DNA from: Rhizophagus irregularis
Taxonomy: Eukaryota
NCBI RefSeq assembly: GCF_026210795.1
Contig: NC_089430.1
Span: forward strand, 5,208,001-5,272,000
Length of the DNA: 64,000 bases
Direction: 5' to 3'
This document shows positions 11,148 to 45,976 of this stretch, piece after piece; position 1 is the stretch's first letter; the number at the start of each line of letters is the position of its first letter. The translations under genes were made by a program, and so were the position numbers. The notes under the pieces were generated by a model. It saw only the letters and a program-made list of their open reading frames with translations. It was not told the DNA's origin and did not search any database.

Positions 11148-14100
11148 TTATTCTATTCTAATTTTTTTTCTTTCACTCTCAGATTCGTTAATTTGACTTA
11201 AAAAATAATTTTTTCTTTTACTCCCTGATTCGCTATTTTGACCTAAGAAAAAAAAAGATTATATAAATTACGAATAAAAAAAACATAAAGTTATTATGCA
11301 AATATTGATACTTACTATCTTCATTAACATTCAATTGAGAAATAGTAGAAATTTGTGAAGATTCTATTTAATAAATTAAGGCTTATTATTAGTATTTCGT
11401 TATAAATTAATAGTTTTAAAGTTATAAGTGGAATATGTACCATTCTCATTAATATTCAACTGAGAAATATTGATTTGACAAGATTCTATTTAATAAATTG
11501 AAATTTTGTTATTAGTATTTTATAAACTAGGTACTAAGACATTACATAAGTATGCTATATACCATAAGTATTAATATTCAATTGGGAAAAGTTAAGTTGT
11601 AAAGATTCTATTTAATAAATTGAAGATTGTTATTAGTGTAATATTGGCTAATTATATTTAAAAGTAACAATACTGTTTATTAATGTTTAATGAATTACTG
11701 TTCGGTTGATTTACATACCTGAAAATTCTCTGCTTATTATATTATCATTTTGTTCATAATAATCATCAGAATTTTTTGGTTCAGGAAGATTATTATAATT
11801 AAGTAATCTACTTGTATAAATAGCTTCTGAATGTGTATTATATGATAAAAATGAATTAGCTGATGTTATACTGCTATTTGATGAATTATTGTTTATTTCT
11901 TCTGCTTCCTTAATTTGTACCTGCAATTCTATTGTTTGTTTATTATTAGATTCATATTGCCATCTAAATAAAATGCTAATTATTTCTTTTGCTATTGGTC
12001 GATTTAATGGATTGGCATCTAAGCATCTTTTAATTAAATGTACAATTAATTGCGGTACTTTAATGTTAAACCTTGGTCTAAGTCCTTTGCAAATTTGTAT
12101 TGCTAAATTATTATCATGGCTTAAATCATAATATGGGGGCAATCCAGAAATTACTTCATACATTATTATACCAAAACTATAAATATCGGCGGCTTTGGTA
12201 TAATTTTGTCCTCTTAAAATTTCAGGAGCTATATAAGGCAATACACCATATATCTTATTTTTCATATCTTCTAATTCATTATAATTTGCAGGTTTACATA
12301 ATCCCATATCAGTTATAGCAGATTTATATTTAAACTTTAATATATTTCCAATATGTAAATCTCGATGAATTAATTCCTTTTCATGAATACATTTAAGTCC
12401 AACAATAATATATTGTAAATATTCAAACATTTTATTCCAATTAAGATTATTATGTTCTTTATCTAAATAATTTCGTAGATTGCCATCTTCTGCATATTCT
12501 AAGACCATCATATAATTTTTCGTTTTTGGATCTTGGGTTATTCCATAAAATCTAACAATTATATTATTATCTGTTTCTACTTTATTATGCAGTATAATCT
12601 ATAATGCAATAAAATATTTTAGTAAAACTAACAATCTAGGGAATGATGATAAAAAATAATAAATTAAGTATCAAATTATTATACCTCATTCATAAATTCT
12701 AATGTAACATTTTTTGAATTGTCCAAACTTTTCAGAGCTATAAACTTATTTTCATTATACCTTTCCCAATTTTGATTTTCACTATCCCATTTAGTAATAT
12801 ATCCATCAATCCAATTTGCTCTATACACTTTGCCAAATCCACCTTTTGCAATATATATGATATCATAAAGTCTATCATAAGGTATCCATTCCAATGCTTC
12901 CTTTACATCTTTATGAGTTGATAGTTGGGTATATTGAATAAATTTATCAATATCATCATTTCCACTAGTCCAATCTATGAATTTCTGTTGAAAGAAAATT
13001 GCATTACATATTTTATTGCACTTTTTACATTTATTATTCAAAGCCATCATATAATTTTTTGTTTCTGGATCCTGAGTTATTCCATAAAGTTTATTAATCT
13101 ATAAATAAATATTTTATTAATAAAAAATTAAAAATTTTGTAATTATATTATCAAATAAAAAATTTATTATACCTCTTTCATAAGTTCTGATGCAATATTT
13201 TTTGAATAATCTAAGTTTTTCAGAATTACATATATATTTTTGTCCTTTCTTATCCAATTTTGATTTTCATTATCCCAACTTACATCTCTTTCATAATAAC
13301 TTATATTTCCATCAATCCAATTTGCACTATATGCTTCATCTTTTGCAATATATTTAATATTATACAATCTATCATAAGGTATCCATTCCAATGCTTCTCT
13401 TACATCTTTATGAGCTGATAACTGAGTATCTTGAATAAATTTATCAATATCATTATTACCACTAGTCCAATCTATGAATTTGTGTTGGAAGTGTATTGTA
13501 TTACATATACTATTACACTTTTTACATTTATTATTGAAAACCATAATATATCTTTTTGTTTCTGGATCTTGAGTTATTCCATAAAATTCACATTCTATTT
13601 TAATCTATAAATGTAATAATACTTATTAGTAGAAATTAAAATATTCAAAATTTTGCTAGATAAGTTTACCATACCTTATTTATAAATTCTAATGTAAAAT
13701 TATTTAAAGTATTTAAGCTATTCAAATTCACAAATATATTGTGGCCTTCTCTATTCCAAATTTGATTTTTATTATCCCAATAACTTATATTTCCATCTAT
13801 CCAATTTGCTCTAAACACTTTGCCAAATTCATCTTCTGCAGTATATTTAATATTATACAAACTATCATAGGGTATCCATTCCAATGCTTCTCTTATATCT
13901 TCATGAGCTAATAACTGAGTATCTTGAATAAATTTATCAATATCATTATTACCACTAGTCCAATCTATGAATTTATGTTGAAAATGAATTGCATTGCATA
14001 TTTTATTGCATTTTTTACATTCATTTTTCAAAACTATCATATAGTTATCTGTTTCTGGATCTTGAGTTATTCCAAAAGGTATATCAATCTATAAATACAA

Positions 14101-15663
14101 ATATATTAATAGGAATTAAAAACTTCAAAATTTTATTGGTATTAAATTATTATACCTCATCATTTGTAAATTTTGTTCTAATATTTTCTAAATTATTTAA
14201 ACTTCTCAGAATTACATCCTCACTTTCATATCTTATACAATTTTTTATCATATTATTCCAATATTTTATTTTTCCATCGATCCATTTTGCTCTATACACT
14301 TTACCAAATTCATTTTTTGCAAAATTATCCAGTCTATCATAAGGTATCCATTCTAATGCCTCATTTACATCACAAGCTGATAGCTGAGTATCCTGAATAA
14401 ATTTATCAATATCATCATTACCACTAGTCCAATCTATAAATTTCTGTTGAAAATGGATTGCATTACATATCTTATTGCATTTTTTACATTTACTATTCAA
14501 AACCATCATATAATTTTTCGTTTCTGGATCCTGAGTCATTCCATAAAATTCATATTCAATTTTAATCTACAAATATTATAAATGTTAGACAACTAAATTT
14601 TAAAATTTTGTTGAGTAATAAGCTTATTAGTAGTATACTACCTTACTTGCAAGATCATATGTAAGATCATTTGAAGTATTTAAACTTTTCAAATTCACAA
14701 ACATATTATGATTGTTTCTTTTCCAATTTTGGTTTTCATTATTCCAGTAAGAATCATTACTTTCATGATTATCTAAGTAATAACTATTGTTATAACCTTT
14801 ATCATAATAGTAACTCTTATAACCTTTATCATAATAACTTATATTTCCATCAATCCATTTTGCTCCATACACTTCACCAATCTCATCCTTTGAAATATAT
14901 TTAATATCAAAAAATCTATCATAAGATATCCATTCTAATGCTTTCTCTACACTATTATGAGCTGATAACTGAGTATCTTGAATAAATTTATCAATATCAT
15001 TATTACCGCTGGTCCAATCTATGAATTTATGTTGAAAATGAATTGCATTGCATATTTTATTGCATTTTTTACATTTATTATTCAAAACAAGCATATAATT
15101 TTTTGTTTCTGGATCCTGAGTCATTCCATAAAATTCATATTCAGTTTTAATCTACAAATGTAATAATATATTAGGAAATAAAATATTTATAATTTTTTAG
15201 GCAATTAATAAGCTTACTAGTATACTACCTTATTTGCAAGTTCAAATATAAAATCATTTGGAATATTAAAACTTTTCAAATTCACAAACATTTTATTGTT
15301 TCTTTTGTTTCTTTTCCAATTTTGGTTTACAATATCCAAATAACTATAACTACTATACCTCATGTATTTACCAAATATATTTTCAACAACCCAATTTGCT
15401 CTATACACTTCACCAAACCCATCCTTTGAAGTATATTTAATATCATAAAATCTATTATAAGGTATCCATTCTAATACCTCTTTAACATTATCATGAGCTG
15501 ATAGCTGAGTATCTTGAATAAATTTATCAATATCATTATTACCACTAGTCCAATTTTTGAAATTTTGTTGAAAACGCGCTGCAAAACATACGCGATTGCA
15601 TTTTTTACATATCTCGATTATCTTGTTAGCATTTGATGGCTTTACTAGCCCAAAAATCTCCAT
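11148..15663 (-). CDS. Multi-module TKL-like protein kinase, gene 1 (about 1242 aa): 6 module exons, kinase C-lobe exon, 3 micro-exons, terminal exon
   Basis: Exons 15663-15229, 15151-14642, 14566-14156, 14088-13675, 13604-13173, 13098-12685, 12598-11719, 11607-11563, 11485-11441, 11363-11316, 11242-11148. All introns are GT..AG and the frame is continuous. Motifs KGGFG, IALK, HRDLHIGN, DMG, APE, DIYSFG. The start codon is uncertain because a possible acceptor lies just upstream at 15681. Confidence 0.88.
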
Positions 15664-15790
15664 GAGCAAGAATTTTACAATCTATTTATAAATTCAGTTT
15701 AAGAAGATAATTAAATATAAAAAAGCTAAAAAAAATTGTGCAGATTAAAAGTTCCGGGATCATATAAATAGAAAGTCAAAATGCAACAAC

Positions 15791-15796
15791 CACGTG
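15791..15796. promoter_or_regulatory. Conserved CACGTG E-box upstream of kinase gene 1 (also at 32619 and 46127)
   Basis: Same relative position in all three paralogous upstream regions, next to a tataaatag element and a tcacgta site. Confidence 0.4.
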
Positions 15797-17754
15797 ATAT
15801 GATGTCGTGTGGCTTATATTAAGATATCACGTACAATACCAATTGAATTTATGAGTAACGATGATTCTGTTACAGGCAAACGCCGAAACTCGGCCTTAAT
15901 TTTGGTTAAAATTAAAATTCGGCCGAAATTATGACATAATGTCACGTGTCGTTACATTAATTTCCTAAAAAGGCAATTTGTTCCCAGTAGCTACGCGGAT
16001 TTCCTAAGATGGAAATTTCAATGTCGATCATTTTCCTGGCCAGAATCACACCCTAAAAATGGCCAGAATTATACCAATAATTTCGGTCAAATTTCGGACT
16101 AATTTCGGCGGCAAATTTATTTTTGATTGCTACAAAAAAGTTTCGGCCTTGGCCTAAATTACTTAATTCGGCAAGAAACCTTACAGTGAGTGAGTGACAA
16201 CGGCAATTCGTACCAGATCACTGATTCTGTCATACTTTCCATTTTGAAAAAATCAACACGTTCGCCAAATCTTCGACTGTGTTTTGTACGTCAAAAACTA
16301 GCTGCGGAAATGTTTATTGACGATAAACTAATACAAGATTCCAAAACGTTATATGAACGGCAAATATGAAGCATTTTGTATAGGATATAACAAGTATAAA
16401 GTGTAACGACCCTTTATCATCACACCATCGAACAATTAAATATTTTAAATATTGGTCTACAACCAAAAAAATAAAAAGATTCTTTTTATTTTTGAAGCCA
16501 CTCTTTCTAAATGACACATTTGTATATATTTAAAACCTAATTATTTGTTTCAGTATAGATTGATATATAATAATTTATTTAGTTTTTATTAAAGAAAAGT
16601 TATTGTTGTTTTCCATTTTATATTTTTAATTTCTTGTAAACTTGTTTAATTGACATAGCCATGTTTTTCATTTCATTTTTTTTTTTGAAAAAATTCTGTT
16701 CCTGGGTTACTCATTTTACGTTGAATCCGCAATAGAAACATTATAAGGTTTTCAAAAATTTTTGAGACGTTCATTAAAAAATGATCTGCAATCACATGAC
16801 ATATATGTGAATTTTTGTAAATCGGAATCTTTTTTTACTAAAATTTTATTAAACTTTAAAAAATTAAACACCCACTTAAATTTAAATAGTAAATAGTGAA
16901 TAGTAGGATTTATTTTTGTTTAATTTATTAATTTAAATATAAAAATTAAAATATAATGTTAAAATGGATCAACAATATTATTGAGAAGAAAATTATAAAA
17001 TAAATAAAAATTCTTTGCAACTTACTTTATGTAGACATAGTTTCTTCGTAAGTAATATTATATACAGTACATCATATCTAACGCCAATAAAAAATGCATA
17101 AAGTTAAACAACTTCCACCAAAAAAAAGAAATAAACATCAAAAGAAATAAACTTATAATTATATACAAAAAGCTCATACCACTTCTAATTGTTCTATAAA
17201 TTAATTTTCGTCTCTTTTATTAAAAACGCATAAATTTTTATTATCAAATGTTATAATAAATTTTAATAAAAAAAACAATTATTAATTGATAAATCACATT
17301 TTTTCTTCTGAAATAAAATTTTATTAAATAAATACACAACACGTTTTAAAATACCCATTTTATTATTTTTTGCAAAAAAAAACTACTTTATTATTCTTCC
17401 TATTCCTGACTTTTTTCTGCTCTTGTTGCCATTCTTCCTCGTTTCTTTCTAAAGAGCACTTCTTCCCTTTTATGCAATTAGTAGATTCTATATCCTTTTT
17501 TTAGGCGGGTTCGATAACCGTGCTAAACAAGTCGCGTTAATTTGATTATAAACATTTCTCATTTAATGAAAAAAGAACTCTTTTTGATGTATAAGTATGC
17601 AAACATGATATATGTGCCCTTTATATATATATATATTAAAGTCCTATTATATTATATAAGCATGTTCTTGTTTATAATAATAGAAAATCTTAAAAAAATA
17701 ATATAATAAAAAATAGATAATTAATACATTACAAACTATACCTTTTGAATGAAT

Positions 17755-17965
17755 AATTATCTATTCTTAATTTTATTTTTCACTTTTATTTCTATATTTT
17801 TGTCTGTTATTATACAATTTACTATCTTCATCAATGTTCAATTGAGAAATATTAAATATTCTAAATGATTAATTTAATAGTATTTTATAAATTTCGAATT
17901 TTCTTTTTTTTAAAAAAAATGAGTTAATTAATATATATACCAGAAATTTCATCTTGTTGATTTAT
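17755..17965 (-). pseudogene. Remnant 3' end of another kinase paralogue
   Basis: Minus strand shows a ...GAAATTTCTG|gtatat donor near 17941, a frameshifted micro-exon (aatatttctcaattgaacattgatgaagata|gt, about 17823-17860) and an aaaattaagaatagataa terminus resembling genes 1 and 3. Confidence 0.5.
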
Positions 17966-17994
17966 CCTATCGCAACGCAACAGGTTACAGCTAG
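17966..17994 (+). mobile_element. Second Helitron-like 3' terminus
   Basis: cctatcgcaacgcaacaggttacagCTAG|T, near-identical to 7684-7711. Confidence 0.5.
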
Positions 17995-18520
17995 TATATC
18001 AGATTAATTATATCAATTTACGATTGAAGATATTTGACAGGCTCAGATAGTGCCGAGTAAGTGACATAATCTGGATCATAGAACACACTTTTCTAAATCC
18101 TCATAAAGATACAAAGAACAATTGATTACAATCACGTGATATCCTTTGATCACGTAATAAGATTTTTAGCACAAAAAAAAGGGGTCCTATGACTTTGCAT
18201 TATATCACGTACATTACACATACTTTTTCTTGTTTTTTTTGAAATTTTTTTCGTCGCCACCTTACGTGATTGACGTCATTTTCAGCCATTTTGAAAATGG
18301 CAATAATATCATGTACTAAGAACGGTTAATATTATACTTGAAACACTAAGGGAATATTTACAAAGAGCGAAATAAGCTATAGGTAATAAAAATCATTGAA
18401 AAAAATTATGATAATCAATAATCGATAATAATATTAACTTCACTTCGCCCATCAAATAACAAAAAAATTTCGAAAAACAAAACAAGTCATTTTTAAAAAA
18501 TTGTTCAAGCAACAATCAAA

Positions 18521-23939: not shown

Positions 23940-26900
23940 CTATCTATCTATTTGTGAAATATCAATTTTAGAAATATCAATTAGTTGAGAAATATCAGTT
24001 TGTTGAGAAATATCAATTTGTTGAGAAATACCAATTTGCTGTGATTCTTTTTAATTAAATGAGATATAATTAATATTAATTTTTCAAAAATAAATAAATA
24101 AATAAATAAAATTATTAACCAATACCTGACAATTCCTTGCTTATTATATTATCATTTTGTTCATAATAATCATCAGAATTTTTTGGTTCGGGAAGATTAT
24201 TAAAATTAAGCAACCGACTTATATAAATAGCTTCTGAATGTGTTTTATATGATATACCTAAATTACTTATATTTATATTACCATTTGGCAAATCATTATT
24301 TATCTTATCTGCTTCTTTAACTTGGTTTTGAATTTCCGCTTTGCCATAAAACAGTTCAAATTTCCATTTATCTAAAATTCCTTTAATTTCAGCTGCTGTT
24401 GGTCGCTTTAATGGATTTGCATCTAAACATCTTTTAATCAAATGCACAAGTAATTGTGGTACTTTAATATTAAACCTTGGCCTAATTCCTTGGCAAATTT
24501 TGATTGCTAGGAATTCATCATGACTTATATCATGATATGGAGGTAATCCAGAAATTACTTCGTACATAATTATACCAAAACTGTAAATATCAGATGCCTT
24601 AGTATAATTTTGTCCTATTAGAATTTCAGGAGCTATATAAGGTAAAATACCATATATATTTTTCTCTGAATTTTCCGATTTATTATAATCTGCAGGTTTA
24701 CATAACCCCATATCTGTTATTACAGTTTCATCTTCAAACTTTAATATATTACCAATATGCAAATCTCGATGGATTAATTCCTCTTCATGAATATAACTAA
24801 GTTCAAATGCAATATCATATAAGTTACTAATCCTATCAATCCAAACTAGATTTTTATGATTTATATCCAAATAATTTCGTAAACTCCCGTATTCTGCATA
24901 GTCTAAAACCATAATATAATTCTTTGATTCAGGATCCTGAGTCATTCCATAAAATTTAATAGCTTTATAATTGGAATTTATTTTATGATGTAATATAGCC
25001 TGTATAAGATGCAAAATAAAATATTACGATATGAATTTAAATTTTCATTAAATAATTAATTAATTAAAATACCTCATTCATAAATTCCAATGAAATATTT
25101 TTTGAATTATTTAAACTTTTCAGTGCTACTAACATATCTTTATTATATCTTTTCCAGTCTTGATTTTCGTTATCCCATTTTTCTATAGGTCCATCAATCC
25201 ATTTTGCTTTATAAACCTTAGCAAATCCACCTTTTGCAATATATTCAATATTATTAAATCCATCATAAGGAATCCATTCTAATGCACTCGATAATTTACT
25301 AGCTGTATGTGCTAACAGCTGGGTATCTTGAATAAACTTATCAATATCATTATTACAACTAGTCCAATATTCAAAATTTCTTTGAAAATGTTGCACATTA
25401 CACATATAATTACATATTTCACAGCTATCACTTAAAATTATCATAAAATCTTTTGTTTCAGAATCTTGAGTTATTCCATAGAATTTGTAATTTTTTTTAA
25501 TCTGTAAATATATTATTAATATATCAATAAAATTAATAATTTTTATAAAATTTAAATAACAAATTAATCATTACCTCATTTATAAATTCTTTTGTTATTT
25601 GTTTTGAATTATTTAATGTTTTTAGTATTACAAACATATTTTTATTAGATCTTTTCCAATTTTGGTTTTCATTATCCCATCTTTCTATATATCCATCAAT
25701 CCAATTTGCTTTATACATTTTGCTAGATTCATCATTTGCAATAAATTTAATATTATAAAATCTACCATAGGGTATCCATTCTAATGCTTCCTCTATATTA
25801 TAATGAGCTGATAGCTGAACATCTTGAATAAATTTATCTATTTTATTATTACCACTAGTCCAGCTTTCAAAATTATGACAAAAGTGAATTGCATTACATA
25901 TTTTATTACATATATTACATCTATTACTCAAAACCATTAAATAATCATTTGTTTCTGTATCCTTAGTTATTCCATAAAATTCGTGTATTATTTTAATCTA
26001 TAAATATAATGTGTTAGAGAAAATAAATACTTATAATTGAAAAAAAGATCATCATACCTTATTTGTAAATACTAATGTAAGATGTTCTGAAACATTTAAA
26101 CTCTTCAATCTCACAATCATATTATGATCTCCTCTTTTCCAATTTTGATTTTCATTATCCCAGTATCTTATATTTCCATCAATCCAATTTGCTCTATACA
26201 CTTTGTTAAATCCATCTTTTGAAATAAATTCAATATTGTAAAATCTATCGTAAGTTATCCATTCAATTGCTTTTAATACTTCATAATTATTAGAATGCAT
26301 TGATAACTGAACATCTTGAATAAATTTATCTACAACATGATTACCACTAGTCCAATTGCTAAAATTTTGTCGAAAATGTATTGCAGCACATATATAATTA
26401 CATTTTTTACATATAATATTCAAAACAACAAAATAATTTTTTGTTCCTGGATCCTGAGTTATTCCATAACATTCATGATATATTTTAATCTACAAACGTT
26501 ACATTATATTAGTAAAAATTACAAATTTTATTGAATAATCTTACTTATTATACCTTATTTATAAATTCTGATGTAAGATTGTTTGGAGTACCTAAACTTT
26601 TCAACTTTACAAACATATTAAACATATTAGGATTGCTTCTTTCCCAATTTCGATTTACATAATTCCAACTTTGAAAATTCGATATATAACCATCAATCCA
26701 ATTTGCTCTATACACTTCACCAAAATCATCTTTTGAAATATATTTAATACCATAAAATCTATAATAAGGTATCCATTCTAATACTCCCCTCAAATCATCA
26801 TGAGCTGATAACTGAGTATCTTGAATAAATTTATCAATATCATCATTACCACTAGTCCAATCTATAAATTTCTGTTGAAAATAAATTACATTACATATTT

Positions 26901-29900
26901 TGTTACATTTTTTACATTTATTATTCAAAACAACAAAATAATTTTTTGTTCCTGGATCCTGAGTTATTCCATAACATTCGTGATATATTTTAATCTACAA
27001 ACGTAACATCATATTATTAGTAAAAATTACAAATTTAATTGAATAATCTTACTTATTATACCTTATTCATAAATTCTAATGTAAGATTGTTTGAAGTACC
27101 TAAACTTTTCAACTTCACAAACATATTATGATTATCTCTTTCCCAATTTTGATTTACACAATCCCAATATTCCATATTTCCATCAATCCAATTTGCTCTA
27201 TACATTTTACCAAACTCATCTTTTGAAATATATTTAATATCATAAAATCTATCATAAGGTATCCATTCTAATACATTATTTATTTTATAGAATGTATGTG
27301 CTGATAACTGAGTATCTTGAATAAATTTATCAATATCATCATTACCACTAGTCCAATCTATGAATATATGTTGAAAATGAATTATATTACATATATTATT
27401 ACATTTTTTACATTTATTATTCAAAACCATTATATAATTTTTTGTTTCTGGATTCTGAGTCATTCCATAAAATTTATATTCCATTTTAATCTACAAATGT
27501 AATAATATGTTAGAAAAATAAAACTTTAAAATTTTGTTGAGTAATAAACCTATTAGTATGCTACCTTATTTGCAAATTCAAATGTAAGATCATTTGGAAA
27601 ATTTAAAATTTTCAAATTCACAAACATATTAAGATTATCTCTTTTCCAATTTTGACTTACATAATCCCAATATCCCATATTTCCATCACTCCATTTTGCT
27701 CTATACACTTCACCAAACTCATCTTTTGAAATATATTTAATACCATAAAATCTATCATAAGGTATCCATTCTAATGCCATTTCTGCATTACCATGAGCTA
27801 ATAGCTGAGTATCTTGAATAAATTCATCAATATCATCATTACCACTAGTCCAATCCATAAATTTCTGTTGAAAATGAGTTGCATTACATATTTTATTGCA
27901 CTTTTTACATTTACTATTCAAAACCATCATATAATTTTTTGATTCTGGATCCTGAGTTACTCCATAAAGTTTATGGCTAAATTTAACCTACAAATCAAGC
28001 AATATATAAATAAATATTAATTCTTCAAAATTTTAATAAATAACCTATTATACCTTATTTATAAATTCTAATGTATGATTGTTCAGAGTATCTAAACTCT
28101 TCAAATTCACAAATATATTAGGATTGCCTCTTATCCAAAATTGATTTTCATTATCCCAATATTCTATATTTCCATCAATCCAATTTGCACCATACACTTT
28201 ACCAAACTCATTTTTCGCAAAATCATACAATCTATAATAAGGTATCCATTCTAATGCTTCCTCTACATTATTATGAACTGACAGCTGAATATTTTGAATA
28301 AATTTATCAATATTATCATTACCACTAGTCCAATCTATGAATATATGTTGAAATTGAATTGCATTACATATACTGTCACATTTTTTACATTTATTATTCA
28401 AAACCATCATATAATTTTTTGTTTCTGGATCCTGAGTCATTCCGTAAAATTCATATTCAATTTTAATCTAAAAATATAATAATATATTAGAAAAATAAAA
28501 TTTAAAATTTTATTGAGTAATAAGCTTATTGGTATATTATACCTTATTTGCAAATTCTAGTGTAAGACTGTTTGGAGAAATTAAACTTCTCAAATTCACA
28601 AATATATAAAAAATGTTTCTTTCCCAATTTTGATTTTCAATATCCCAATACTTTATATTTCCATCAATCCAATTTGCTCTATATACTTTACCAAACTCAT
28701 CTTTTGAAATATATTTAATATTATACAATCTATCATAAGGTATCCATTCTAATGCCATTTCTGCATTATCATGAGCTGATAGCTGAGTATCTTGAATAAA
28801 TTTATCAATATTATCATTACCACTAGTCCAATTTTCGAAATTTTGTTGAAAACGTATTGCATAACATATACAATTATTACATTTTTTACATTTATTATTC
28901 AAAACCATCATATAATTTTTTGTTTCCGGATCCTGAGTAATTCCATAAAATTTATATTCAATTTTAATCTGCAAATGTAATAATATGTTAGAAAAATAAA
29001 ATTTTAAAATTTTGTTGAGTAACAAGCTTATTGGTACTATATTATACCTTATTTGCAAATTCTAATGTAAGATTATTTGGAGTAATTAAAATTTTCAAAT
29101 TTACAAACATATTAGGATTGTTTCTTTCCCAATTTTGACTTTCATTATCCCAACTTCCATAATAATCTATATTTCCATCAACCCAATTTGCTCTATACAC
29201 TTCACCAAACTCATCTTTTGAAGTATGTTTAATATCATATAATTTATTATAAGGTATCCATTCTAATGCTTCCTCTAAATTATTATGAGCTGATAGCTGA
29301 ATATCTTGAATAAATTTATCAATATTATCATTACCACTAGTCCAATTTTTGAAACTTTGTTGAAAATGCAATACATGACATATGCGATTACATGTTTTAC
29401 ATTTATTATTCAAAACCATTATATAATTTTTTGTTTCTGGATCCTGAGTCATTCCATAAAATTCATATTCAATTTTAATCTACAAATGTAATCATAGGTC
29501 AGAAAAATAAAATTTTAAAATTTTGTTGTGTAATAAGCTTATTAGTATACTACCTTATTTGCAAGTTCAAAAAATGTAAGGTCATTTGGAGTATTTAAAC
29601 TTTTCAAATTCACAAACATACCAAGATTGTATCTTTTCCAATTTTGATTCACATAATCCCAACTTCGAAAATTTGATATATAACCATCAATCCAATTTGC
29701 TCTATACATTTCACCAAACTCATCTTTTGAAATATATTTAATATCATAAAATCTATCATAAGGTATCCATTCTAAAACTCCCCTCAAATCATTATGAGCT
29801 GATAACTGAGTATCTTGAATAAATTTATCAATATCATCATTACCACTAGTCCAATCTATAAATTTCTGTTGAAAATAAATTACATTACATATTTTGTTAC

Positions 29901-32470
29901 ATTTTTTACATTTATTATTCAAAACCATCATATAATTTTTTGTTTCTGGATCCTGAGTCATTCCATAAAATTCATGTTTAACACTGATCTACAAATGTAC
30001 AATATATTAAAAAAAATAAAGTATTTAAAATTATTAATTAAACTTATCATACCTTAGTTACAAGTTCAAAAGTAAGATCATTTGGAGCATTTAATCTTTT
30101 CAAATTCACAAACATATTAGGATTGCTTCTTTCCCAATTTCGATTTACATAATTCCAACTTCGAAAATTCGATATATAACCATCAATCCAATTTGCTCTA
30201 TACACTTCACCAAACTCATCTTTTGAAATGTATTTAATACCATAAAATCTATCATAAGGTATCCATTCTAATACTCCCTTCAATTCATAATGAGATAATA
30301 ACTGGGTATCTTGAATAAATTTATCAATATCATGATTGCTGCTAGTCCATTCATTGAATTTATGTTGAAAATGAATTACATAACATATACTGTCACATTT
30401 TTTACATCTATTATTCAAAACCATCATGTAATTTTTTGTTTCTGGATCCTGAGTTATTCCATAAAATTCATATTCAATTTTAATCTACAAATGTAATAAT
30501 ATGTTAGAAAAACAAAATTTTAAAAGTTGGTTGAGTAATAAGCTTATTAGTATGCTACCTTATTTGCATGTTCAAATGTAAGGTCATTTGGAAAATTTAA
30601 ACTTTTCAAATTCACAAACATATTAAGTTTATCATTTTTCCAATTGTGATTTACATGATTCCAATATCTCAGATTTCCATCAATCCAGTTTGCTCTATAC
30701 ATTTCACTAAACTCATCTTTTGAAATATATTTAATATCATAAAATCTATCATAAGGTATCCATTCTAATACTTCCCTCAAATCATCATGAGCTGATAACT
30801 GAGTATCTCGAATAAATTTATCAATATCATCATTTCCACTAGTCCAATCTATAAATTTCTGTTGAAAATGACACATTTTATTGCACTTTTTACATTTATT
30901 ATTCAAAACCATCATATAATTTTTTGTATCTGGATCCTGAGTCATTCCATAAAATTTATATTCAATTTTAATCTACAAATAAATGTAATAATATGTTAGA
31001 AAAATAAAATTTTAAAAGTTTGGTGAGTAATAAGTTCATTGGTATATTACTTTATTTGCAAGTTCAAATGTAAGATCATTTGGAGAATTTAAACTCTTCA
31101 AATTTACAAACATATCAATATTGGTTCTTATCCAATTTTGATTTAAATTCCAATAACTATAATTTTTATATTCTGTAACATATTTGCTATTTATTTTTAT
31201 TTTTCCATCAATCCAATTTGCTCCATACACTTTACCAAACTTATCTTTTGTAATGCATTCAATATTATGCAGTCTATCATAAGGTATCCATTCTAATGCT
31301 TTATTCACATCATAATGAGCTGATAGCTGAGTATTTTGAATGAATTTATCAATATTATCATTACCACTTGTCCAATCTATAAATTCCTGTTGAAAATGAA
31401 CCACATTACATATTTTGTTGCACTTTTTACATTTATTATTCAAAACTATCATATATTTTTTTTTTTCTGGATCCTGAGTTATTCCATAAAATTCATGTTC
31501 AACCCTAATCTACAAATGTACAAAATGTACAATATATTAAAAAAAAAATAAAATATTTATAATTGTTAATTAAGCTTATCATACCTTATTTGCAAATTCA
31601 AATGTAAGATCATTTGGATTATTTAAACTTTTCAAATTCACAAACATATTAGGATTGTTTCTTTCCCAATTTTGATTTACATAATTCCAACTACGAAAAT
31701 TTGATATATAACCGTTAATCCAATTTGTTCTATACACTTCACCAAACTCATCTTTTGAAATATATCTAATATCATAAAATCCATCATAAGGTATCCATTC
31801 TAATACTCCCCTTACATCATCATCATGAGCTGATAACTGAGTATCTTGAATAAATTTATCGATATCATCATTACCACTAGTCCAATCTATAAATTCCTGT
31901 TGAAAATGAATCACATTACATATTTTATTGCACTTTTTACATTTATTATTCAAAACCATCATATAATTTTTTGTTCCTGGGTCCTGAGTCATTCCATAAA
32001 ATTTGTATTCAATTTTAATCTAAAATGTAATAATATGTTAGAAAAATAAAATTTTGAAATTATGTTAAGCAATAAGCTCGTTAGTATACCTTATTTGCAA
32101 GTTCAAATGTAAGATCATTTGGATTATTTAAACTTTTCAAATTCACAAAAATATTAAAAATGTTTCTTTCCCAATTTTGATTAGCATAATTCCAATATTT
32201 TATATTTCCATCAACCCAATTTGCTCTATACACTTCACCAAACTCGTCTTTTGAAGTATATTTGATATTACAAAATCTATCATAAGGCATCCATTCCAAT
32301 GCTTTATTCATTTCATAATGAGCTGATAGCTGAGTATCTTGAATAAATTTATCAATATTATCATTACCACTAGTCCAATTTTTGAAATTTTGTTGAAAAC
32401 GTATTGCATAACATATACGATTACATTTTTTACATATTTCGTATGGCTTAACTAGCTCAAAAGAATCCAT
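23940..32470 (-). CDS. Multi-module TKL-like protein kinase, gene 2 (about 2461 aa): 15 module exons, kinase C-lobe exon, repeat tail exon
   Basis: Module exons 32470-32090, 32019-31585, 31509-31051, 30972-30559, 30484-30053, 29988-29554, 29479-29048, 28968-28543, 28467-28054, 27987-27565, 27490-27062, 26994-26554, 26489-26058, 25997-25575, 25501-25073; kinase exon 24999-24126; tail exon 24046-23940. Open frame throughout; KGGFA/VALK/HRDLHIGN/DMG/APE. Confidence 0.88.
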
Positions 32471-32479
32471 GAGCAAAAA

Positions 32480-38500: not shown

Positions 38501-38631
38501 ATTAAAATGATTAATATTGCAGATGCCAAAATTCTATTTTTTTTATTACTGTATTTGCTATTATCAATATTGTACGCAAATAAACTACTGACGTTCAATA
38601 TTGTGCAATAATAAGTAATTGATGCAGTATA

Positions 38632-39154
38632 CACAGTGAAATTCGATAAACCGGATATTCGATAAACCGGATTTGGGCCTAAACCGGACTTTTTTGCTGG
38701 AACCAAATCACGTATATTAAAATAGGCTCGATATACCGGAGTTTACTAGTAAAAGCTCGATATTCGCTATAACGGATCAATTTTCTAACCAGCTATAGTA
38801 AAAATGATTCGATAAACCGGATCACGTGACTGGGAACCAATAAAATTTAAGTAACGTGATTCGGTAAATCTTAAATTTGGCCAGAATTATAAAAATCTTA
38901 ATTCCGGCTGAAGTTAAGTATTACTTATATATTCAATTAAAATATTTTATATTCATTTTCATGACCTCTATAACTTAAAACTAGATGAAAAAATCAAATT
39001 ATAGTGTATATTAGTTTTATTAGCATGAAAATTTTTTAAAAATTCAATATAATAGATTTTCAATATATCGAAATTTTTTCGCTAAACCGGATATCCCGAT
39101 AAACCGGATATTTTTAGTGGAACCGATAGATCCGGTTTATCGAATTTCACTGTG
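38632..39154. mobile_element. Tc1/mariner-type MITE
   Basis: Perfect 25-bp TIR cacagtgaaattcgataaaccggat with TA TSD; internal gataaaccgg repeats. Confidence 0.88.
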
Positions 39155-39917
39155 TATTACTTTACATAAAAAATAAAAAATATCAATCAAATAAAATAAG
39201 CATGTTCCTAGGGCATGCAATAATAGATGTAATAGAATATATTGTTTGTTTTGCAATTTTTAAAGCTTCCTAAAAAATATTACCGATCAATGTCAGAATA
39301 TTTGTAACAAAATAGTAAAAACTCTATTAAGCTTGAATCTGAAGGAAGATCACATAACGGATTACCTAATGCAAACAATGCAGAACTTATTATATTAACC
39401 ATAGTAAAGCTAAATCAAGAAGTAATGGTTGTTGATAGTGTTTCAGACAAGTAGTTAAAAATTCTCCAATATCATTGATTTTAATGCGAAAATACTCGCT
39501 ATAAATTGTATATGTTAAATGGTATTGAAGTTGAGATGAAAAGTATACTTCTAATATTATATATTGATTTTATTTAAAAAAAAAGATCGAACAAAAGAGA
39601 AAAAAAACACGCATTAGTTAAATATGATCATTATGACTTAAAATTCTGCTTAACATAATTCATATCCACTTTTCATTATGTAGTAAAAAAAAAATTGCGA
39701 TTCAAATAATTATAGAAATTATAGAAAGCAAAAAAAAATAAATAAATAAATAAATAAAAATTATTCAAATTTAGATCCATCCACCTAGATTTTAAGAAGT
39801 CAATGTTAAGCAGAATTTTAAATTATAACGACAAATTTTTTCTTTGAAAAAAAGAATGATCTATAATTAAATTTGGTATAGCAGCAATAATCTGAATAAA
39901 GATATACAATTATACAT

Positions 39918-42900
39918 TTATTCTATTCTAATTTTTTTTCTTTCACTCTCAGATTCGTTATTTTGACTTAAGGAATGATTTTTTCTTTTACTTCCCGATT
40001 CGCTATTTTGACCTAAGAAAAAAAAAGATTATATTAATTACGAATAAAAAAAAAACATAAAGTTATTATGCAAATATTGATATTTACTATCTTCATTAAC
40101 ATTCAATTGAGAAATAGTAGAAATTTGTGAAGATTCTATTTAATAAATTAAGGCTTATTGTTAGTATTTATAAACTAATATTTTTAAAGTTATAAGTGTA
40201 ATATTTACCATTCTCATTAATATTCAAATGAGAAATATTAATTTGACAAGATTCTAGTTAATAAATTGAAATTTTGTTATTAGTATTTTTAAACTAAATA
40301 TTTTTTGATGTTATAAGTGGAATATTTACCATTCTCATTAATATTCAATTGAGAAATATTGATTTGTAAAGATTCTAGTTAATAAATTGATACTTTTAGT
40401 ATTTTATAAACTAGGTACCAAGACATTACGTAAGTATGCTATTTACCACTAGTATTAATATTCAATTGAGAAAAGTTAAGTTGTAAAGATTCTATTTAAA
40501 AAATTGAAGATTATTATTAGTGTAATATTAACTAATTATATTTAAAAAGTAACAATTAATACCGATTATTAATGTAAGTAAATTACTGTTTGGTTGATTT
40601 ACATACCTGAAAATTCCTTGCTTATTATATTATCATTTTGTTCATAATAATCAACAGAATTTTTTGATTCAGGAAGATTATTAAAATCGAGTAATCTACT
40701 TGTATAAATAGCTTCTGAATGAGTTTTATATGATAGACTAGTTGAAGGTATACTATTTGATAAATTTTTGTTTATTTCATCTGCTTCTTTAATTTGTTTT
40801 TGTATTTCAGTTGAATTTCCTAATCTCCATTTCCATAATTCATCCCTAATCTCTTTTGCTTTTGGTCTATTTAATGGTATTGCATCTAAGCATCTTTTAA
40901 TCAAATGCACAATTAACTGAGGTACTTTAATATTAAACATTGGCCTAAGTCCTTGGCATATTTTTATTGATAAAATTCTATCATGGCTTATATCATGATA
41001 TGGGGGTAGTCCAGAAATTACTTCATACATAATTATACCAAAACTATAAATATCAGCAGCTTTAGTATATTTTTGTCCTCTTAAAATTTCAGGAGCTATA
41101 TAAGATAGAACACCATATATATTGTTTGTTGTATTTTCTGATGCATCATAATCTGCAGGCTTACATAATCCCATATCAGTTATATGAATAACTTCATAAT
41201 TTTTAAGAATATTCCCAATATGTAAATCTCGATGAATTAATTTATTATTATGAATATTCTCAAGTCCAGATGCAATACAACACAAATATTTAATCTTACT
41301 ATCCCAATTTAATTTATTAAAAGCTGTATCCAAATAATTTCGTAAGCTTCCATCTTTTGCATAATCCATAACCATTATATAGTCTTTTGTTTCTGGATCT
41401 TGAGTTATACCATACAGCTTTATAATATAAAAGTTATCTTTCACTTTATTATGCAGCATAACCTACATGTAAAATGCATGTAACAAATATAATATAAGAA
41501 ATTAAGATTCAAATATATCATTAAACAAAAATTGTATGATTACCTCTCTTATAAATTTTAATGTAACATTTTTTGAATTATTTAAACTTTTTAAAGCCAC
41601 AAATTTATTATGATCTTCTCTTTTCCAATTTTGAATTTCATTATCCCATTTGCCTATACATCCAACAAACCAATTCGCACTATATACTTTTCCAAACCCA
41701 CCTTTTGCAATATATTTAATATTATGAAATCTATCATAAGGAATCCATTCTAATGCTTTTTTTACCTTATGATAAGTATGCTCTGATAGCTGAGTATCTT
41801 GAATAAATTTATCAATATTATCATTGCCACTAGTCCAATCTATAAATTTCTGTTGAAAGTGAATTGCATTACATATTTTATTACATATTTTGCATTCATT
41901 ACAATGCAAAACCATCATATAACTTTTGTTTTTAGATCCTGAGTAATTCCACAAGCTTTGTTAATCTACAAATAAAAAAATATTATTAAAAAAAATTAAA
42001 ATTTGCAATTATATTATCAAATCTAAAATAATTTCACCTTCATAGATTCTGATGTAATATTATTTGAATAATTTAAGTTTTCCAAAATTACAGATATATT
42101 TTGATTCTTTCGTTCCCAATTTTGATATTTATTATCCCAATAACTTATATTTCCATCAATCCGCTTTGCTCTATATACTTCACCAAACCCACCTTTTGCA
42201 ATATACTTAATATCATACAATTTACTATAAGGTATCCATTCCAATGCCTCTTTTACATCACAAGCTGATAGCTGAGTATCTTGAATAAATTTATCAATAT
42301 TATCATTACCACTAGTCCAATCCATGAATTTATGTTGAAAATGAATTGCATTGCATATTTTATTGCACTTTTTACATTTATTATTCAAAACCATCATATA
42401 ATTTTTTGTTTCTGGATCCTGAGTTATTCCATAAAATTCATATTCAATTTTAATCTACAAATGTAATAATATGTCAGAAAAATAAAATTTTAAAATTTTG
42501 TTGAGTAACTTCTTAGTATATTACCTTATTTGCAAGTTCAAATGTAAGATCATTTGGAGAAGTTAAACTTCTCAATTTCACAAACATATTAGGATTTCTT
42601 CTAATCCAATTGTTATTTACACTCCAAGAACAAAACATATAATAATTCTCACCTATGTTTCCATCAATCCAAATTGCTCTATACACTTTACCTAACTCAT
42701 CTTTTGTGATATATTTAATGTCGTACAATTTATTATAAGGTATCCATTCTAATGCTTCATTTACATTATCATGGACTGACAGCTGCATAACTTGAATAAA
42801 TTTATCAATATCATTATTTCCACTAGTCCAATTTTTGAAGTTTCGTTGAAAATATATTGAATTACATATTACACTATTACATTTTTCACATATATCGTCC

Positions 42901-45900
42901 AAAACTATCATATAATTTTTTGTTTCTGGATCCTGAGTTATTCCGTAAAATTCATATTTAATCTAAAAATGTAATAATATGTTAGAAAATAAAATTTTAA
43001 AATTTTGTTAAGTAATAAGCTTAGTATACTACCTTATTTGCAAGTTCAAATGTAAGTTCATTTGGAGAATTTAAACTTTTCAAATTCACAAACATATTAA
43101 AAACGTTTCTTATCCAATTTTGGTTTACATCATCCCAATGACTATAATTATTATATTCCCAAACATATTTGGTACCTATCTTTCCATCAATCCAATTTGC
43201 TCTATACACTTCACTAAAATCATCTTTTGAAATATATTTAATGTTATAAAATCTATCATAAGGTATCCATTCTAATATTCCCCTCACATCATAATGAGCT
43301 GATGACTGAGTATCTTGAATAAATTTATCAATATCATCATTACCACTTGTCCAATCTATGAATTTATGTTGAAAATGAATTGCATTACATATTTCATTGC
43401 ACTTTTTACATTTATTATTCAAAACCATCATATAATTTTTTGTTTCTGGATCCTGAGTAATTCCATGAAATTCATATTCAATTTTAATCTACAAATGTAA
43501 TAATATGTCAGAAAAATAAAATTTTAAAATTTTGTTGAGCAATAAGTTTATTAGTATAATACCTTAATTGCAAGTTCAAATGTAAGATCATTTGGAGAAT
43601 TTAAACTTTTCAAATTCACAAACATGTTAAGATTGTTTCTTTCCCAATTTTGATTTTTATCATCCCAACAGTTAGACTTCCAACTATATATACTACCTAT
43701 ATTTCCATCGCTCCATTTTGCTCTATACACTTCACCAAACTCATCTTTTGAAATATATTTAATATTATAAAATCTATTATAAGGTATCCATTCTAATGCC
43801 TCTTTTGCAATATCATGAGCTGATAACTGAGTATCTTGAATAAATTTATCAATATTATCATTACCACTAGTCCAATTTTTGAAATTTTGTTGAAAACGTA
43901 TTGCATAACATATTTTTTTACACATTTTACATTTATTGCAATGTAAAACCATCATATAACTTTTTGTTTCTGGATCCTGAGTAATTCCAAAAGCTTTGTT
44001 AATCTACAAATAAAATATATTATTAAAAAAAATTAAAAATTTGCAATTTACATTATCAAATCTAAAATTAATTTTACCTTCTTCATAAATTCTGATGTAA
44101 TATTATTTGAATAATTTAAGTTTTCCAAAATTACAGATAAATTTTGATTCTTTCATTTCCAATTTTGATATTTATTATCCCAATAACTTATATTTCCATC
44201 AATCCGCTTTGCTCTATATACTTCACCAAACCCACCTTTTGCAATATACTTAATATCATACAATTTACTATAAGGTATCCATTCCAATGCCTCTTTTACA
44301 TCACAAGCTGATAGCTGAGTATCTTGAATAAATTTATCAATATTATCATTACCACTAGTCCAATCCATGAATTTATGTTGAAAATGAATTGCATTGCATA
44401 TTTTATTGCACTTTTTACATTTATTATTCAAAACCATCATATAATTTTTTGTTTCTGGATCCTGAGTTATTCCATAAAATTCATATTCAATTTTAATCTA
44501 CAAATGTAATAATATGTCAGAAAAATAAAATTTTAAAATTTTGTTGAGTAATAATACTAACCTTATTTGCAAGTTCAAATGTAAGATCATTTGGAGAATT
44601 TAAACTTTTCAAATTCACAAACATATTCAGTTTGTCTCTTATCCAATTTTGATTTTCATAATTCCAGTAACTTATATTTCCATCAATCCAATTTGCACTA
44701 TATACTTTATTAAACTCATCATTTGCAATATATTTAATATCATACAATCTATTATAAGATATCCATTCTAATACCCAATCTACATCACAAGCTGATAGTT
44801 GAATATCTTGAATAAATCTATCAATATCATCATTACCACTAGTCCAATCTATGAATTTATGTTGAAAATGAATTGCATTGCATATTTTATTGCACTTTTT
44901 ACATTTATTATTCAAAACCATCATATAATTTTTTGTTTCTGGATCCTGAGTTATTCCATAAAATTCATATTCAATTTTAATCTACAAATGTAATAATATG
45001 TTAGAAAAATAAAATTTTAAAATTTTGTTAAGTAATAAGCTTATTAATATACTACTACCTTATTTGCAAGTTCAAATGTAAGATCATTTGGAGTATTTAA
45101 ACATTTCAAATTCACAAACATATTAAGATTGTTTCTTTTCCAATTTTGTTTTACATTATCCCAACAATTATTATATTCATTACTTATGTTTCCATCAATC
45201 CAATTTGCTCTATACACTTCACCAAATTTCTCTTTTGAAATATATTTAATATTATACAATCTATTATAAGGTATCCATTCTAATGCTTCTCTTGCATAAT
45301 CATGAGCTAATAACTGAACATCCTGAATAAATTTATCAATATTATTATTGCCACTAGTCCAATCTATGAATCTATGTTGAAAATGAATTGCATTACATAT
45401 TCCATTGCACTTTTTACATTTATTATTCAAAACCATCATATAATTTTTTGTTTCTGGATCCTGAGTTATTCCATAGAATTCATATTTAATCTACAAATGT
45501 AATATGTTAGAAAAATAAATTTTAAATCTTGTTAAGTAATAAGCTTATTAGTATACTACCTTATTTGCAAGTTCAAATGTAAGATCATTTGGAGAATTTA
45601 AACTTTTCAAATTCACAAACATATTAGGATAGTTTCTTTTCCAATTATGTTTTAATACATCACCCCAATAATTATAACTATAATATTTATCAATTATGTT
45701 CCCATCAAACCAATTTGCTCTATACACTTTACCTAACTCATCTTTCGTAATATATTTAATGTCATACAATTTATCATAAGGTATCCATTCTAATGCATTA
45801 TTTACTTCATAGAATGTATGTGCTGATAACTGAGTATCTTGAATAAATTTATCAATTCCTTCATTACCACTAGTCCAATCTTTGAAGTTTTGTTGAAAAC

Positions 45901-45976
45901 GAATTGCGTTACATCTATAATTACATTCTTTACATATCTCGTAACCATCCGGCTGAACTAGCCCAAAAGAATCCAT
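39918..45976 (-). pseudogene. Multi-module TKL-like kinase, gene 3: 9 module exons, kinase exon, 4 micro-exons, terminal exon; disrupted as written
   Basis: Module exons 45976-45560, 45490-45059, 44981-44562, 44497-44078, 44003-43563, 43488-43033, 42962-42525, 42454-42038, 41965-41544; kinase exon 41462-40607; micro-exons 40491-40447, 40374-40330, 40253-40209, 40135-40088; last exon 40012-39918. In-frame TGA at 44155-44153 and a 1-nt deletion near 41925. Confidence 0.75.

What the first reader, a model, noticed from the sequence alone, without database searches (positions are those of the whole stretch)
11148..45976. Kinase family with variable arrays (6/15/9) of cassette exons, each encoding a Cys-knuckle plus pseudo-N-lobe module
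Seen: 30 exons of about 380-510 nt, all flanked by phase-0 introns and all multiples of 3 except one frameshifted copy. Internal exons encode (F/Y)GxTQDPETKNYMMVL - CxxCxxxC - WTSGNxxIDKFIQxxQL - LEWIPY - Gly-loop - WxDG - VxLK - alphaC-like; first exons lack the TQDP part. The intron cuts the N-lobe after alphaC, so each lobe is completed by the beta4-beta5 segment at the start of the next exon. Established: these motifs are kinase subdomains I-V. Inference: isolated N-lobes have become a tandem repeat, possibly a sensor or decoy array coupled to one active kinase, analogous to plant tandem kinase proteins or NLR repeat arrays. Any exon can be skipped, duplicated or joined to the C-lobe exon without a frameshift, allowing Dscam-like combinatorial diversity. 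I know of no description of this architecture but could not search.
Basis: partly seen in the sequence, partly recalled or inferred. Interest (0 to 1): 0.9.

Follow-up and report, generated by a model that had tools for sequence, protein, structure and literature searches.

The report
Fungal kinases with half-kinase repeat arrays
Three neighbouring signalling-enzyme (kinase) genes of a root-symbiotic fungus carry 5, 14 and 8 extra tandem copies of the kinase's own front half, which have lost the parts needed for catalysis and are reshuffled by DNA recombination, and likely serve as a variable binding array controlling the one working kinase.

Summary
There are 30 phase-0 exons on the minus strand in three tyrosine-kinase-like genes (6/15/9), most likely of Rhizophagus irregularis. 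In each gene the last module is the real catalytic N-lobe; the other 27 are pseudo-lobes. A model without the kinase folds as kinase N-lobes. Across homologues, internal lobes lack the glycine loop (4 of 539 keep it; 90 of 91 catalytic lobes do). Reading frames are under strong selection. Arrays occur in Rhizophagus, Glomus, Acaulospora and Ambispora and likely arose at least three times.

Corrections: the protein repeat is a whole cap + N-lobe domain cut at the hinge, with the intron inside it. Diversification is shown at DNA level (mosaic modules, a 393-nt exact tract), not by splicing. No skipping was seen, at coverage too low to test it, and a pseudo-lobe joined to the C-lobe would give a dead kinase. 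Gene C is broken twice.

No Pfam family and no paper in ten searches describes this. The nearest analogues are the wheat WTK3/Rwt4 pseudokinase fragment and KIND domains. This scan noted a similar, decayed array on another genome (e1-9917726). The sensor function is inferred.

The parts
11148..15663 (-). Gene A: 5 pseudo-N-lobe modules + catalytic kinase + short tail exons; intact, 1242 aa in the deposited model
   Evidence: P0034 = EXX51419.1, about 99% identity per exon
13173..15681 (-). Gene A module exons A1-A5 (15681-15229, 15151-14642, 14566-14156, 14088-13675, 13604-13173); glycine loop lost
12685..13098 (-). Exon A6: Cys cap + catalytic N-lobe (KGGFG, IALK, FMNE)
11719..12598 (-). Gene A C-lobe exon (beta4-beta5, hinge, HRD, DMG, APE)
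11148..11637 (-). Gene A tail: about 122-bp tandem units, each with a short Ser/Gln/Asn exon, then the last exon
23940..32470 (-). Gene B: 14 pseudo-N-lobe modules + catalytic kinase; open throughout, about 2,460 aa predicted; the deposited model GBC40435.2 has only 412 aa
25575..32488 (-). Gene B module exons B1-B14 (period about 496 bp)
25073..25501 (-). Exon B15: Cys cap + catalytic N-lobe (KGGFA, VALK, FMNE)
24126..24999 (-). Gene B C-lobe exon; PF07714 128.6 bits (cut-off 23.1)
39918..45976 (-). Gene C: 8 pseudo-N-lobe modules + kinase; broken by a stop in C4 and a frameshift in C9; likely a young pseudogene
42038..45994 (-). Gene C module exons C1-C8; C4 and C8 keep a glycine loop but lack the beta3 lysine
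44153..44155 (-). Premature TGA in exon C4
41544..41965 (-). Exon C9: catalytic N-lobe, 422 nt, frameshifted near its 5' end
40607..41462 (-). Gene C C-lobe exon (HRD, DMG, APE intact)
44159..44551 (-). 393-nt exact copy of 42508-42116 (intron end + most of exon; C4 = C8): recent conversion or unequal crossover
40080..40546 (-). Gene C tail: about 121-bp tandem units (3.9 copies), each with a short exon

Best explanation
These are Glomeromycotina tyrosine-kinase-like genes in which the front of the kinase (a cysteine cap plus an N-lobe) is tandemly repeated 5 to 14 extra times as non-catalytic copies that recombine at the DNA level, and the array likely acts as a variable binding (sensor or decoy) surface that would regulate the single working kinase at the C-terminus. 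Shown: the exon structure, selection on the reading frame, loss of ATP-binding motifs in internal lobes, mosaic modules, and spread across several AM-fungal genera. Predicted: the N-lobe fold of the modules and a defined head-to-tail packing. Inferred: origin by duplication of the segment from the cap to the hinge at least three times, zinc binding by the cap, ligand binding by the variable loops, and control of the kinase by ligand-induced release or clustering. Genes A and B are open; gene C is likely dead.
For: Fold: a model of two non-catalytic modules (P0159; pLDDT 83.4, pTM 0.72) aligns over residues 61-153 with kinase N-lobes. RIP3 Z 7.5, rmsd 2.5, 76 aligned; JAK2 pseudokinase 7.1; RIPK2 7.0; MLKL 6.9; all 50 rows are kinases or kinase-like. 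Foldseek's best match is RIPK2, E 6e-5. Division of labour among lobes found by pattern in 262 proteins: glycine loop 90 of 91 catalytic vs 4 of 539 internal; VAxK 88 of 91 vs 29 of 539; hinge 80 of 91 vs 2 of 539; CxxC right after beta5 1 of 91 vs 441 of 539. In the window's subfamily the lobe-to-C-lobe link (alphaC-beta4) is 9 residues shorter in internal lobes (77 last lobes without a C-lobe set aside). Selection: neutral simulation puts a stop in 25.7 of 28 exons, observed 0 of those 28 (the two lesion exons left out). Core omega is 0.26-0.32 (Cys cap, helix B, beta3), while the loop after helix B (1.35), the NWxR stretch (1.12) and alphaC (2.15, CI 1.03-4.43) vary freely; C-lobe exons 0.41-0.46. 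Recombination: exact tracts of 393, 151, 132 and 87 nt, the last between genes B and C; contiguous halves give different distances (r 0.40 vs 0.75, 0 of 2000 shuffles) and near-site incompatibility is low (0 of 1000). Repeated origin: internal lobes group with their own subfamily's catalytic lobes; a single clade of internal lobes is rejected, p-AU 4e-6. Family members are transcribed and joined module-to-module in RNA reads (13, 15 and 5 reads on three joints, the first two probably one transcript; junction type matched). Precedent: in wheat Rwt4/WTK3 a 145-residue pseudokinase fragment arose by duplication of its own kinase and binds the effector PWT4 (10.1101/2024.08.30.610185, passages). 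A module folded with the capped kinase gave weak support only: 0.37, best control 0.01, runs agree in at least 92% of contacts, partner pLDDT at least 82; the mark was reached by 51 of 78 solved and 2 of 108 mismatched pairs, but at 0.60 or under by only 5 of 78 solved pairs and all 4 passing mismatches. The two chains are repeat neighbours, like halves of a split gene, so this probably reflects head-to-tail packing.
Against: No ligand, phenotype or activity is known. Overall module omega is 0.74 (0.58-0.92), and most loop intervals include 1. These are pooled pairwise counts on recombining copies, so relaxed and diversifying selection cannot be told apart. An open frame is required anyway to reach the downstream kinase, so it does not prove a function of the modules. 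Expression of gene B itself is not shown: only 28-35 of 485-649 reads laid per run were at least 99% alike, and 87-91% ran on into unlike sequence (about a quarter of each run read). Gene C is broken twice. Kinase genes of this fungus are highly CG-methylated (PMC8647823, passages), and the module exons are CpG-poor (o/e 0.27). The structural Z scores are all under 8. Concerted evolution within genes could mimic independent origins. An unchecked scan note (e1-9917726) reads a similar array elsewhere as dead and non-coding.
Confidence: 0.5

Rival explanations
1. Tolerated accordion: the duplications persist because each added unit keeps the frame and folds harmlessly; selection only guards the frame and fold so that the terminal kinase is still made, and many such genes are on the way to decay.
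For: Module omega 0.74 vs 0.41-0.46 for C-lobe exons; gene C broken; no expression shown for gene B; the same genes carry a second exon-repeat array in the tail; several metagenome arrays look decayed; kinase genes are methylated like repeats (PMC8647823); scan note e1-9917726 (unchecked).
Against: Three Cys and the W/S/N/D/F/I/Q core are invariant in 25 of 25 aligned modules with omega near 0.3. Arrays of up to 14 units are kept across R. irregularis, R. clarus, R. diaphanus and G. cerebriforme and arose in separate lineages as whole lobes. The shortened alphaC-beta4 link is uniform in the window's subfamily.
Confidence: 0.22
2. Structural scaffold: the array is a rigid rod or multivalent platform that clusters or spaces kinases (RIPK-like activation by assembly) or titrates N-lobe-binding regulators, and sequence variation among modules does not encode specificity.
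For: Two-module model pTM 0.72 suggests fixed packing; weak module-kinase score (0.37 vs control 0.01, caveats above); nearest folds include RIPK2, RIP3 and MLKL; identity to the catalytic lobe does not change along the array (59-62% at distances 1-8).
Against: Loops and alphaC vary fast and carry in-frame insertions; length varies from 2 to 15 units; the RIPK likeness is generic (23-28% identity, tied with JAK, FGFR, RAF).
Confidence: 0.18
3. Dscam-like splicing: cassette exons are skipped or chosen to make many isoforms from one gene.
For: All module exons are phase 0-0, so skipping keeps the frame; skipping would also create chimeric lobes.
Against: Symmetric phase follows automatically from tandem duplication of one intron-containing unit. 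Introns are only 60-79 nt. None of the 15 listed joints (of 21) had canonical intron ends, at low coverage. Internal exons joined to the C-lobe would lack ATP-binding motifs. DNA mosaicism already explains the diversity.
Confidence: 0.1

Closest known systems
Expanded tyrosine-kinase-like (PF07714) family of Glomeromycotina (PMC6123716, PMC8647823, PMC10234402; passages read)
   Same: The catalytic unit is an ordinary member; single-module relatives have the same cap + kinase layout.
   Different: The passages read count these kinases by Pfam domain and describe no N-lobe arrays; Pfam has no model for the module (0 hits above cut-off for 9 module exons and for P0107).
Wheat tandem kinase Rwt4/WTK3 with its pseudokinase fragment (PKF) (10.1101/2024.08.30.610185, passages); Sr62TK N-lobe beta-finger (10.1101/2024.08.30.610287, passages)
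   Same: A non-catalytic fragment of about 145 residues duplicated from the protein's own kinase sits in front of it, evolves fast (dN/dS 0.96) and binds a foreign protein; in Sr62TK an extended N-lobe hairpin is the predicted effector site.
   Different: One fragment and two whole kinase domains with a partner NLR, against up to 14 fragments and one kinase here. Whether PKF is an N-lobe was not seen in the passages. No NLR was found in this window. The lineages are unrelated.
[quoted passage not shown]
   Same: One kinase lobe detached and reused as a non-catalytic module.
   Different: KIND is the C-lobe, in one or two copies, in proteins without the parent kinase; here it is the N-lobe, in long arrays on the parent kinase.
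Fungal NLR repeat arrays such as the Podospora HET-E/HET-D WD40 repeats (recalled, no call)
   Same: A tandem array reshuffled by recombination, fused to a signalling domain.
   Different: No NACHT or NB-ARC domain; the repeat is derived from the signalling domain itself.
Dscam1 mutually exclusive exon clusters (recalled, no call)
   Same: Tandem symmetric exons of one domain type.
   Different: No sign of one-of-many selection; the annotated and read junctions are module-to-module; introns are tiny.

Membership tests
Tyrosine-kinase-like protein kinase (PF07714), catalytic unit | Pfam score above the curated cut-off | tested here: met
   Gene B C-lobe exon 128.6 bits vs 23.1
Tyrosine-kinase-like protein kinase (PF07714), catalytic unit | Glycine loop, beta3 Lys, alphaC Glu, HRD, DxG, APE | tested here: met
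   A6, B15, C9 and the three C-lobe exons; DMG in place of DFG. Gene C is interrupted upstream.
Tyrosine-kinase-like protein kinase (PF07714), catalytic unit | Phosphotransfer activity | not testable with these tools
   needs an assay
Kinase N-lobe fold (the modules) | Five-stranded sheet plus alphaC matching solved N-lobes | tested here: met
   On a predicted model of homologue P0159: RIP3 Z 7.5, rmsd 2.5, 76 aligned; 50 of 50 rows kinases or kinase-like; Foldseek RIPK2 E 6e-5
Plant tandem kinase proteins | Two complete kinase or pseudokinase domains | tested here: not met
   One C-lobe per gene
Plant tandem kinase proteins | Non-catalytic fragment duplicated from the protein's own kinase (PKF-like) | tested here: met
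Plant tandem kinase proteins | Binds a foreign effector | not testable with these tools
   no ligand known
Plant tandem kinase proteins | Linked helper NLR gene | tested here: inconclusive
   No NB-ARC or NACHT hit among 12 other ORFs scanned; spliced genes can be missed and only 64 kb were seen
Dscam-type combinatorial splicing | Alternative use of the repeated exons in mRNA | tested here: inconclusive
   Gene B coverage too low; no canonical skip among 15 listed joints
Dscam-type combinatorial splicing | Alternative exons interchangeable in front of the constant exon | tested here: not met
   Internal lobes keep the glycine loop in 4 of 539 cases, catalytic lobes in 90 of 91
KIND domain | Isolated kinase C-lobe | tested here: not met
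   The modules are N-lobes
Fungal NLR with variable repeats | NACHT or NB-ARC domain | tested here: not met
   Pfam on the exons and on homologue P0071 shows kinase only
Fungal NLR with variable repeats | Repeats reshuffled by recombination or conversion | tested here: met
Fungal NLR with variable repeats | Positive selection on a binding face | tested here: inconclusive
   Loop omega 1.0-2.2 with wide intervals, pooled pairwise counts

The most novel reading that the evidence does not exclude
AM fungi have repeatedly turned the kinase N-lobe into a new repeat domain and use recombining arrays of it as variable intracellular receptors: decoys for proteins from bacteria, mycoparasites, hosts or incompatible isolates that target kinases, wired directly to a RIPK-like kinase. 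It would be a fungal non-self or immune receptor class distinct from NLRs, convergent with cereal tandem kinases, and would give part of the roughly 2,500-gene kinase expansion a function.
Probability: 0.3. Interest if true: 0.9.

Novelty: new variant of a known kind. Interest (0 to 1): 0.68.

Why it matters
R. irregularis has about 2,533 kinase genes (PMC10234402, passage) whose purpose is an open question. This gives a sizeable subfamily a defined, testable architecture: 254 database proteins in one search, with arrays in at least four genera. It also adds what appears to be an undescribed repeat domain, the N-lobe counterpart of KIND, that arose more than once. Pfam does not see it, and automatic annotation truncates it (gene B: about 2,460 aa predicted, 412 aa deposited). 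If the arrays bind foreign proteins, they are candidates for how a symbiont with no known immune receptor logic of this kind senses microbes or non-self; if not, they still show that an N-lobe can fold without its C-lobe.

Tried and rejected
No whole genome is held for the window, so genome-wide counts were not possible. The run search listed no holder on record as RNA (no RNA holder listed); raw-read runs of the same species label were laid instead. A comparison with other strains' DNA and RNA contigs was not obtained, so allele-level copy number and whether gene C's lesions are general stay open. Two deposited models route around the same lesions (P0277 skips the C4 stop region; P0209 reads the shifted C9 frame), but P0209 may not be independent of the window and P0277 differs from C6 at 6 residues. 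Pfam gave no hit above cut-off for the modules. A profile search of PDB sequences gave only E 0.69 to the RIPK2 N-lobe start: a hint, not RIPK membership. The Cys cap (model residues before 59) was barely tested by the fold search, so nothing is claimed about its fold. Feature counts failed for beta3 and alphaC because the profile was trimmed; redone. One search crashed after building the tree; summarised. The second AU test (groups I + II only) did not finish. DNA-level indel counting in exons was noisy (26 of 42 classes multiples of 3) and was replaced by exon lengths. Module-number differences between near-identical kinases were not used as evidence, because annotation truncates these genes. 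P0204 (Diversispora) is a plain first-exon duplication with an intact glycine loop and was not counted as a mature array. The ESM Atlas, queried with homologue P0159, returned only Mucoromycota clusters with no family for the module. Ten paper searches found no description of N-lobe arrays. The library lacks most subscription papers, no supplements were read, and the original genome papers (Tisserant 2013, Lin 2014, Chen 2018, Morin 2019; recalled) were not seen.
Full report
Observation. A motif scan and exon mapping found 30 modules on the minus strand in three genes: A (6), B (15) and C (9). Every module exon has AG and GT ends at phase 0 and is 399-510 nt long; 29 of 30 are multiples of 3. 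The 27 internal introns are 60-79 nt, all with a branch motif and all with an in-frame stop if retained. Sixteen of 17 distinct exon lengths are multiples of 3 (p=2.7e-7), against 8 of 27 intron lengths. Each gene ends in a C-lobe exon with HRD, DMG and APE (PF07714 128.6 bits for gene B). A deposited R. irregularis model matches gene A at about 99% per exon with the same splicing (P0034), so the organism is most likely R. irregularis. Gene C has a TGA in exon 4 and a frameshift in exon 9, its catalytic lobe.

What the unit is. Single-module relatives read Cys cap, two helices, then a kinase. In the arrays, beta5 of one lobe runs straight into the cap of the next: CxxC follows beta5 in 441 of 539 internal lobes and 1 of 91 catalytic lobes, and the hinge motif is present in 2 of 539 and 80 of 91 (lobes found by pattern in 262 proteins, 77 last lobes without a C-lobe set aside). 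So the duplicated segment runs from the cap, across the intron after alphaC, to the hinge: a whole domain. The cassette exon is the junction product. AlphaFold models support this. A four-lobe homologue with kinase (P0071) gave pLDDT 81.9 and the same strand and helix series in each lobe. A two-module homologue without kinase (P0159) gave pLDDT 83.4 and pTM 0.72. Its residues 61-153 align with kinase N-lobes: RIP3 Z 7.5 (rmsd 2.5, 76 aligned), JAK2 pseudokinase 7.1, RIPK2 7.0, MLKL 6.9; all 50 rows are kinases or kinase-like, none reaches Z 8; Foldseek found 64 matches at E<=0.001, best RIPK2. Pfam has no family for the module.

One working lobe. The glycine loop is kept in 90 of 91 catalytic-position lobes and 4 of 539 internal ones; VAxK in 88 of 91 and 29 of 539. 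In the window's subfamily the distance from the beta3 lysine to beta4 is 22 residues in internal lobes and 31 in catalytic ones, that is, the loop that normally rests on the C-lobe (established kinase anatomy, recalled) is cut short. In the window only A6, B15 and C9 have all motifs; C4 and C8 keep the loop but lack the lysine. Joining an internal exon to the C-lobe exon would therefore give a dead kinase.

Selection and variation. Neutral mutation along the exons' own terminal branches puts a stop in 25.7 of 28 exons (minimum 22 in 1000 runs); none of those 28 has one (C4 and C9 left out). Among 26 non-catalytic modules, omega is 0.74 (0.58-0.92) overall, 0.26-0.32 in the cap, helix B and beta3, and 1.0-2.2 in loops and alphaC with wide intervals; the C-lobe exons give 0.41-0.46 (pooled pairwise counts, approximate). 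Exact shared tracts are 393 nt (C4/C8, including intron), 151 nt, 132 nt (B6/B12) and 87 nt between genes (C5/B1). Two tests on 26 exons show mosaicism (0 of 2000 and 0 of 1000 shuffles). Diversity is thus generated in DNA, with breakpoints inside exons.

Spread and origin. One search gave 254 proteins at E<=1e-10; the 120 listed are from Rhizophagus irregularis, R. clarus, R. diaphanus and Glomus cerebriforme, with 2-10 modules, 83 of 120 with a catalytic loop. A profile search found 3,184 representatives at E<=0.001, single-module kinases included. Of 30 proteins looked up by name, 5 are from Acaulospora morrowiae, 1 from Ambispora leptoticha, 1 from Diversispora epigaea and the rest from Rhizophagus. 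Other subfamilies use four-Cys or Cys-free modules. Fourteen of 80 soil-metagenome loci show the same chimeric exon. Internal lobes are closer to their own subfamily's catalytic lobes (59-60%, 50%, 47%) than to other subfamilies' internal lobes (36-40%). A 62-row tree gives three groups (support 97, 85, 100), and one clade of all internal lobes is rejected (p-AU 4e-6). That points to at least three origins, unless conversion within genes has erased an older one. The Atlas returned only Mucoromycota clusters.

Expression. Four raw-read runs (at most 3 samples, 2 studies; about a quarter of each read) were laid on gene B. Only 28-35 reads per run were at least 99% alike, and most belong to paralogues, so gene B's own expression and splicing are untested. 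None of the 15 listed joints (of 21) has canonical intron ends. Three joints (13, 15 and 5 reads; the first two probably one transcript) run from an alphaC end into a short beta4 start without an intron. This is the internal, module-to-module junction seen in homologues P0078 and P0011. So some family members are transcribed and most likely spliced module to module.

Mechanism. I think it most likely (0.5) that the array is a variable binding surface regulating the terminal kinase. The reasons are a conserved core with free loops, constant reshuffling, repeated origin, and the precedent of the wheat Rwt4/WTK3 pseudokinase fragment, which arose from its own kinase, has dN/dS 0.96 and binds an effector (10.1101/2024.08.30.610185, passages); in Sr62TK an N-lobe hairpin is the predicted effector site (10.1101/2024.08.30.610287, passages). 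A fold of one module with the capped kinase gave weak support only (0.37 vs best control 0.01; contacts agree at least 92%, partner pLDDT at least 82; the mark was reached by 51 of 78 solved and 2 of 108 mismatched pairs, and at 0.60 or under by 5 of 78 solved and all 4 passing mismatches), and it probably mirrors the native head-to-tail contact. Rivals are a tolerated accordion (0.22), a structural scaffold (0.18) and Dscam-like splicing (0.10). Against my reading: no ligand, no expression shown for these genes, gene C dead, kinase genes of this fungus highly methylated (PMC8647823, passages), and an unchecked scan note that reads a similar array on another genome as non-coding (e1-9917726).

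Novelty. The kinase expansion is well known (PMC6123716, PMC8647823, PMC10234402, PMC8778642; passages only), and the proteins are deposited under generic kinase names. Ten searches found no account of N-lobe arrays; subscription papers and supplements were not seen. It works like a kinase-derived sensor fragment (PKF) or a detached lobe (KIND; listing only) but is a member of neither. Verdict: real, a new variant of a known kind with an apparently undescribed repeat domain; interest 0.68.

Noticed in passing
window 11321-11637 and 40080-40546 (minus); 23952-24038: Genes A and C carry a second tandem exon array in the tail (about 121-bp unit, short Ser/Gln/Asn exon; 2.6 and 3.9 copies); gene B instead has five 18-nt repeats inside its last exon.
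   Followed up: partly
deposited models P0109 (GBC40435.2) and P0209 (GBC40436.2): Public annotation reduces gene B to 412 aa and gene C to 424 aa, dropping most modules; module counts taken from protein databases are lower bounds.
   Followed up: yes
P0277 vs window 44497-43033: A deposited protein matches C5 at 99% but differs from C6 at 6 residues: a near-copy of this block elsewhere, or an assembly difference.
   Followed up: no
window 1214-1344 (minus), 5967-6044, 7790-8335, 16203-16693: Relic of the 3' end of a family C-lobe exon, and further copies of the upstream regions of genes B and C, suggesting a lost fourth member.
   Followed up: partly
window 9451-9521 and 10073-10143: 71-nt inverted repeat, 97% identical, about 550 nt apart; could be the ends of a small transposon.
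   Followed up: no
window 3415-5146 (+), 53244-54419 (+), 55501-56187 (+), 60653-62470 (-): Neighbours: cytochrome P450 (hit on 4580-5143), a PB1-domain protein with short repeats, an NAD kinase, and a 605-codon ORF with RNase H, likely retroelement-derived.
   Followed up: partly
module exons vs whole window: CpG observed/expected is 0.27 in modules, 0.43 in C-lobe exons and 1.0 in the window; the C4 stop lies at a CGA of its twin C8, consistent with methylation-driven decay.
   Followed up: partly
L013, L016, L017, L020, L037, L043: Metagenome arrays, mostly with four-Cys caps, some with a longer unit (about 570-660 nt); several look truncated or decayed; possibly another origin with a later breakpoint.
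   Followed up: no
P0122, P0127, P0130, P0135: Cys-free arrays with 11 or more lobes in Rhizophagus, so the cysteine cap is dispensable in some lineages.
   Followed up: partly
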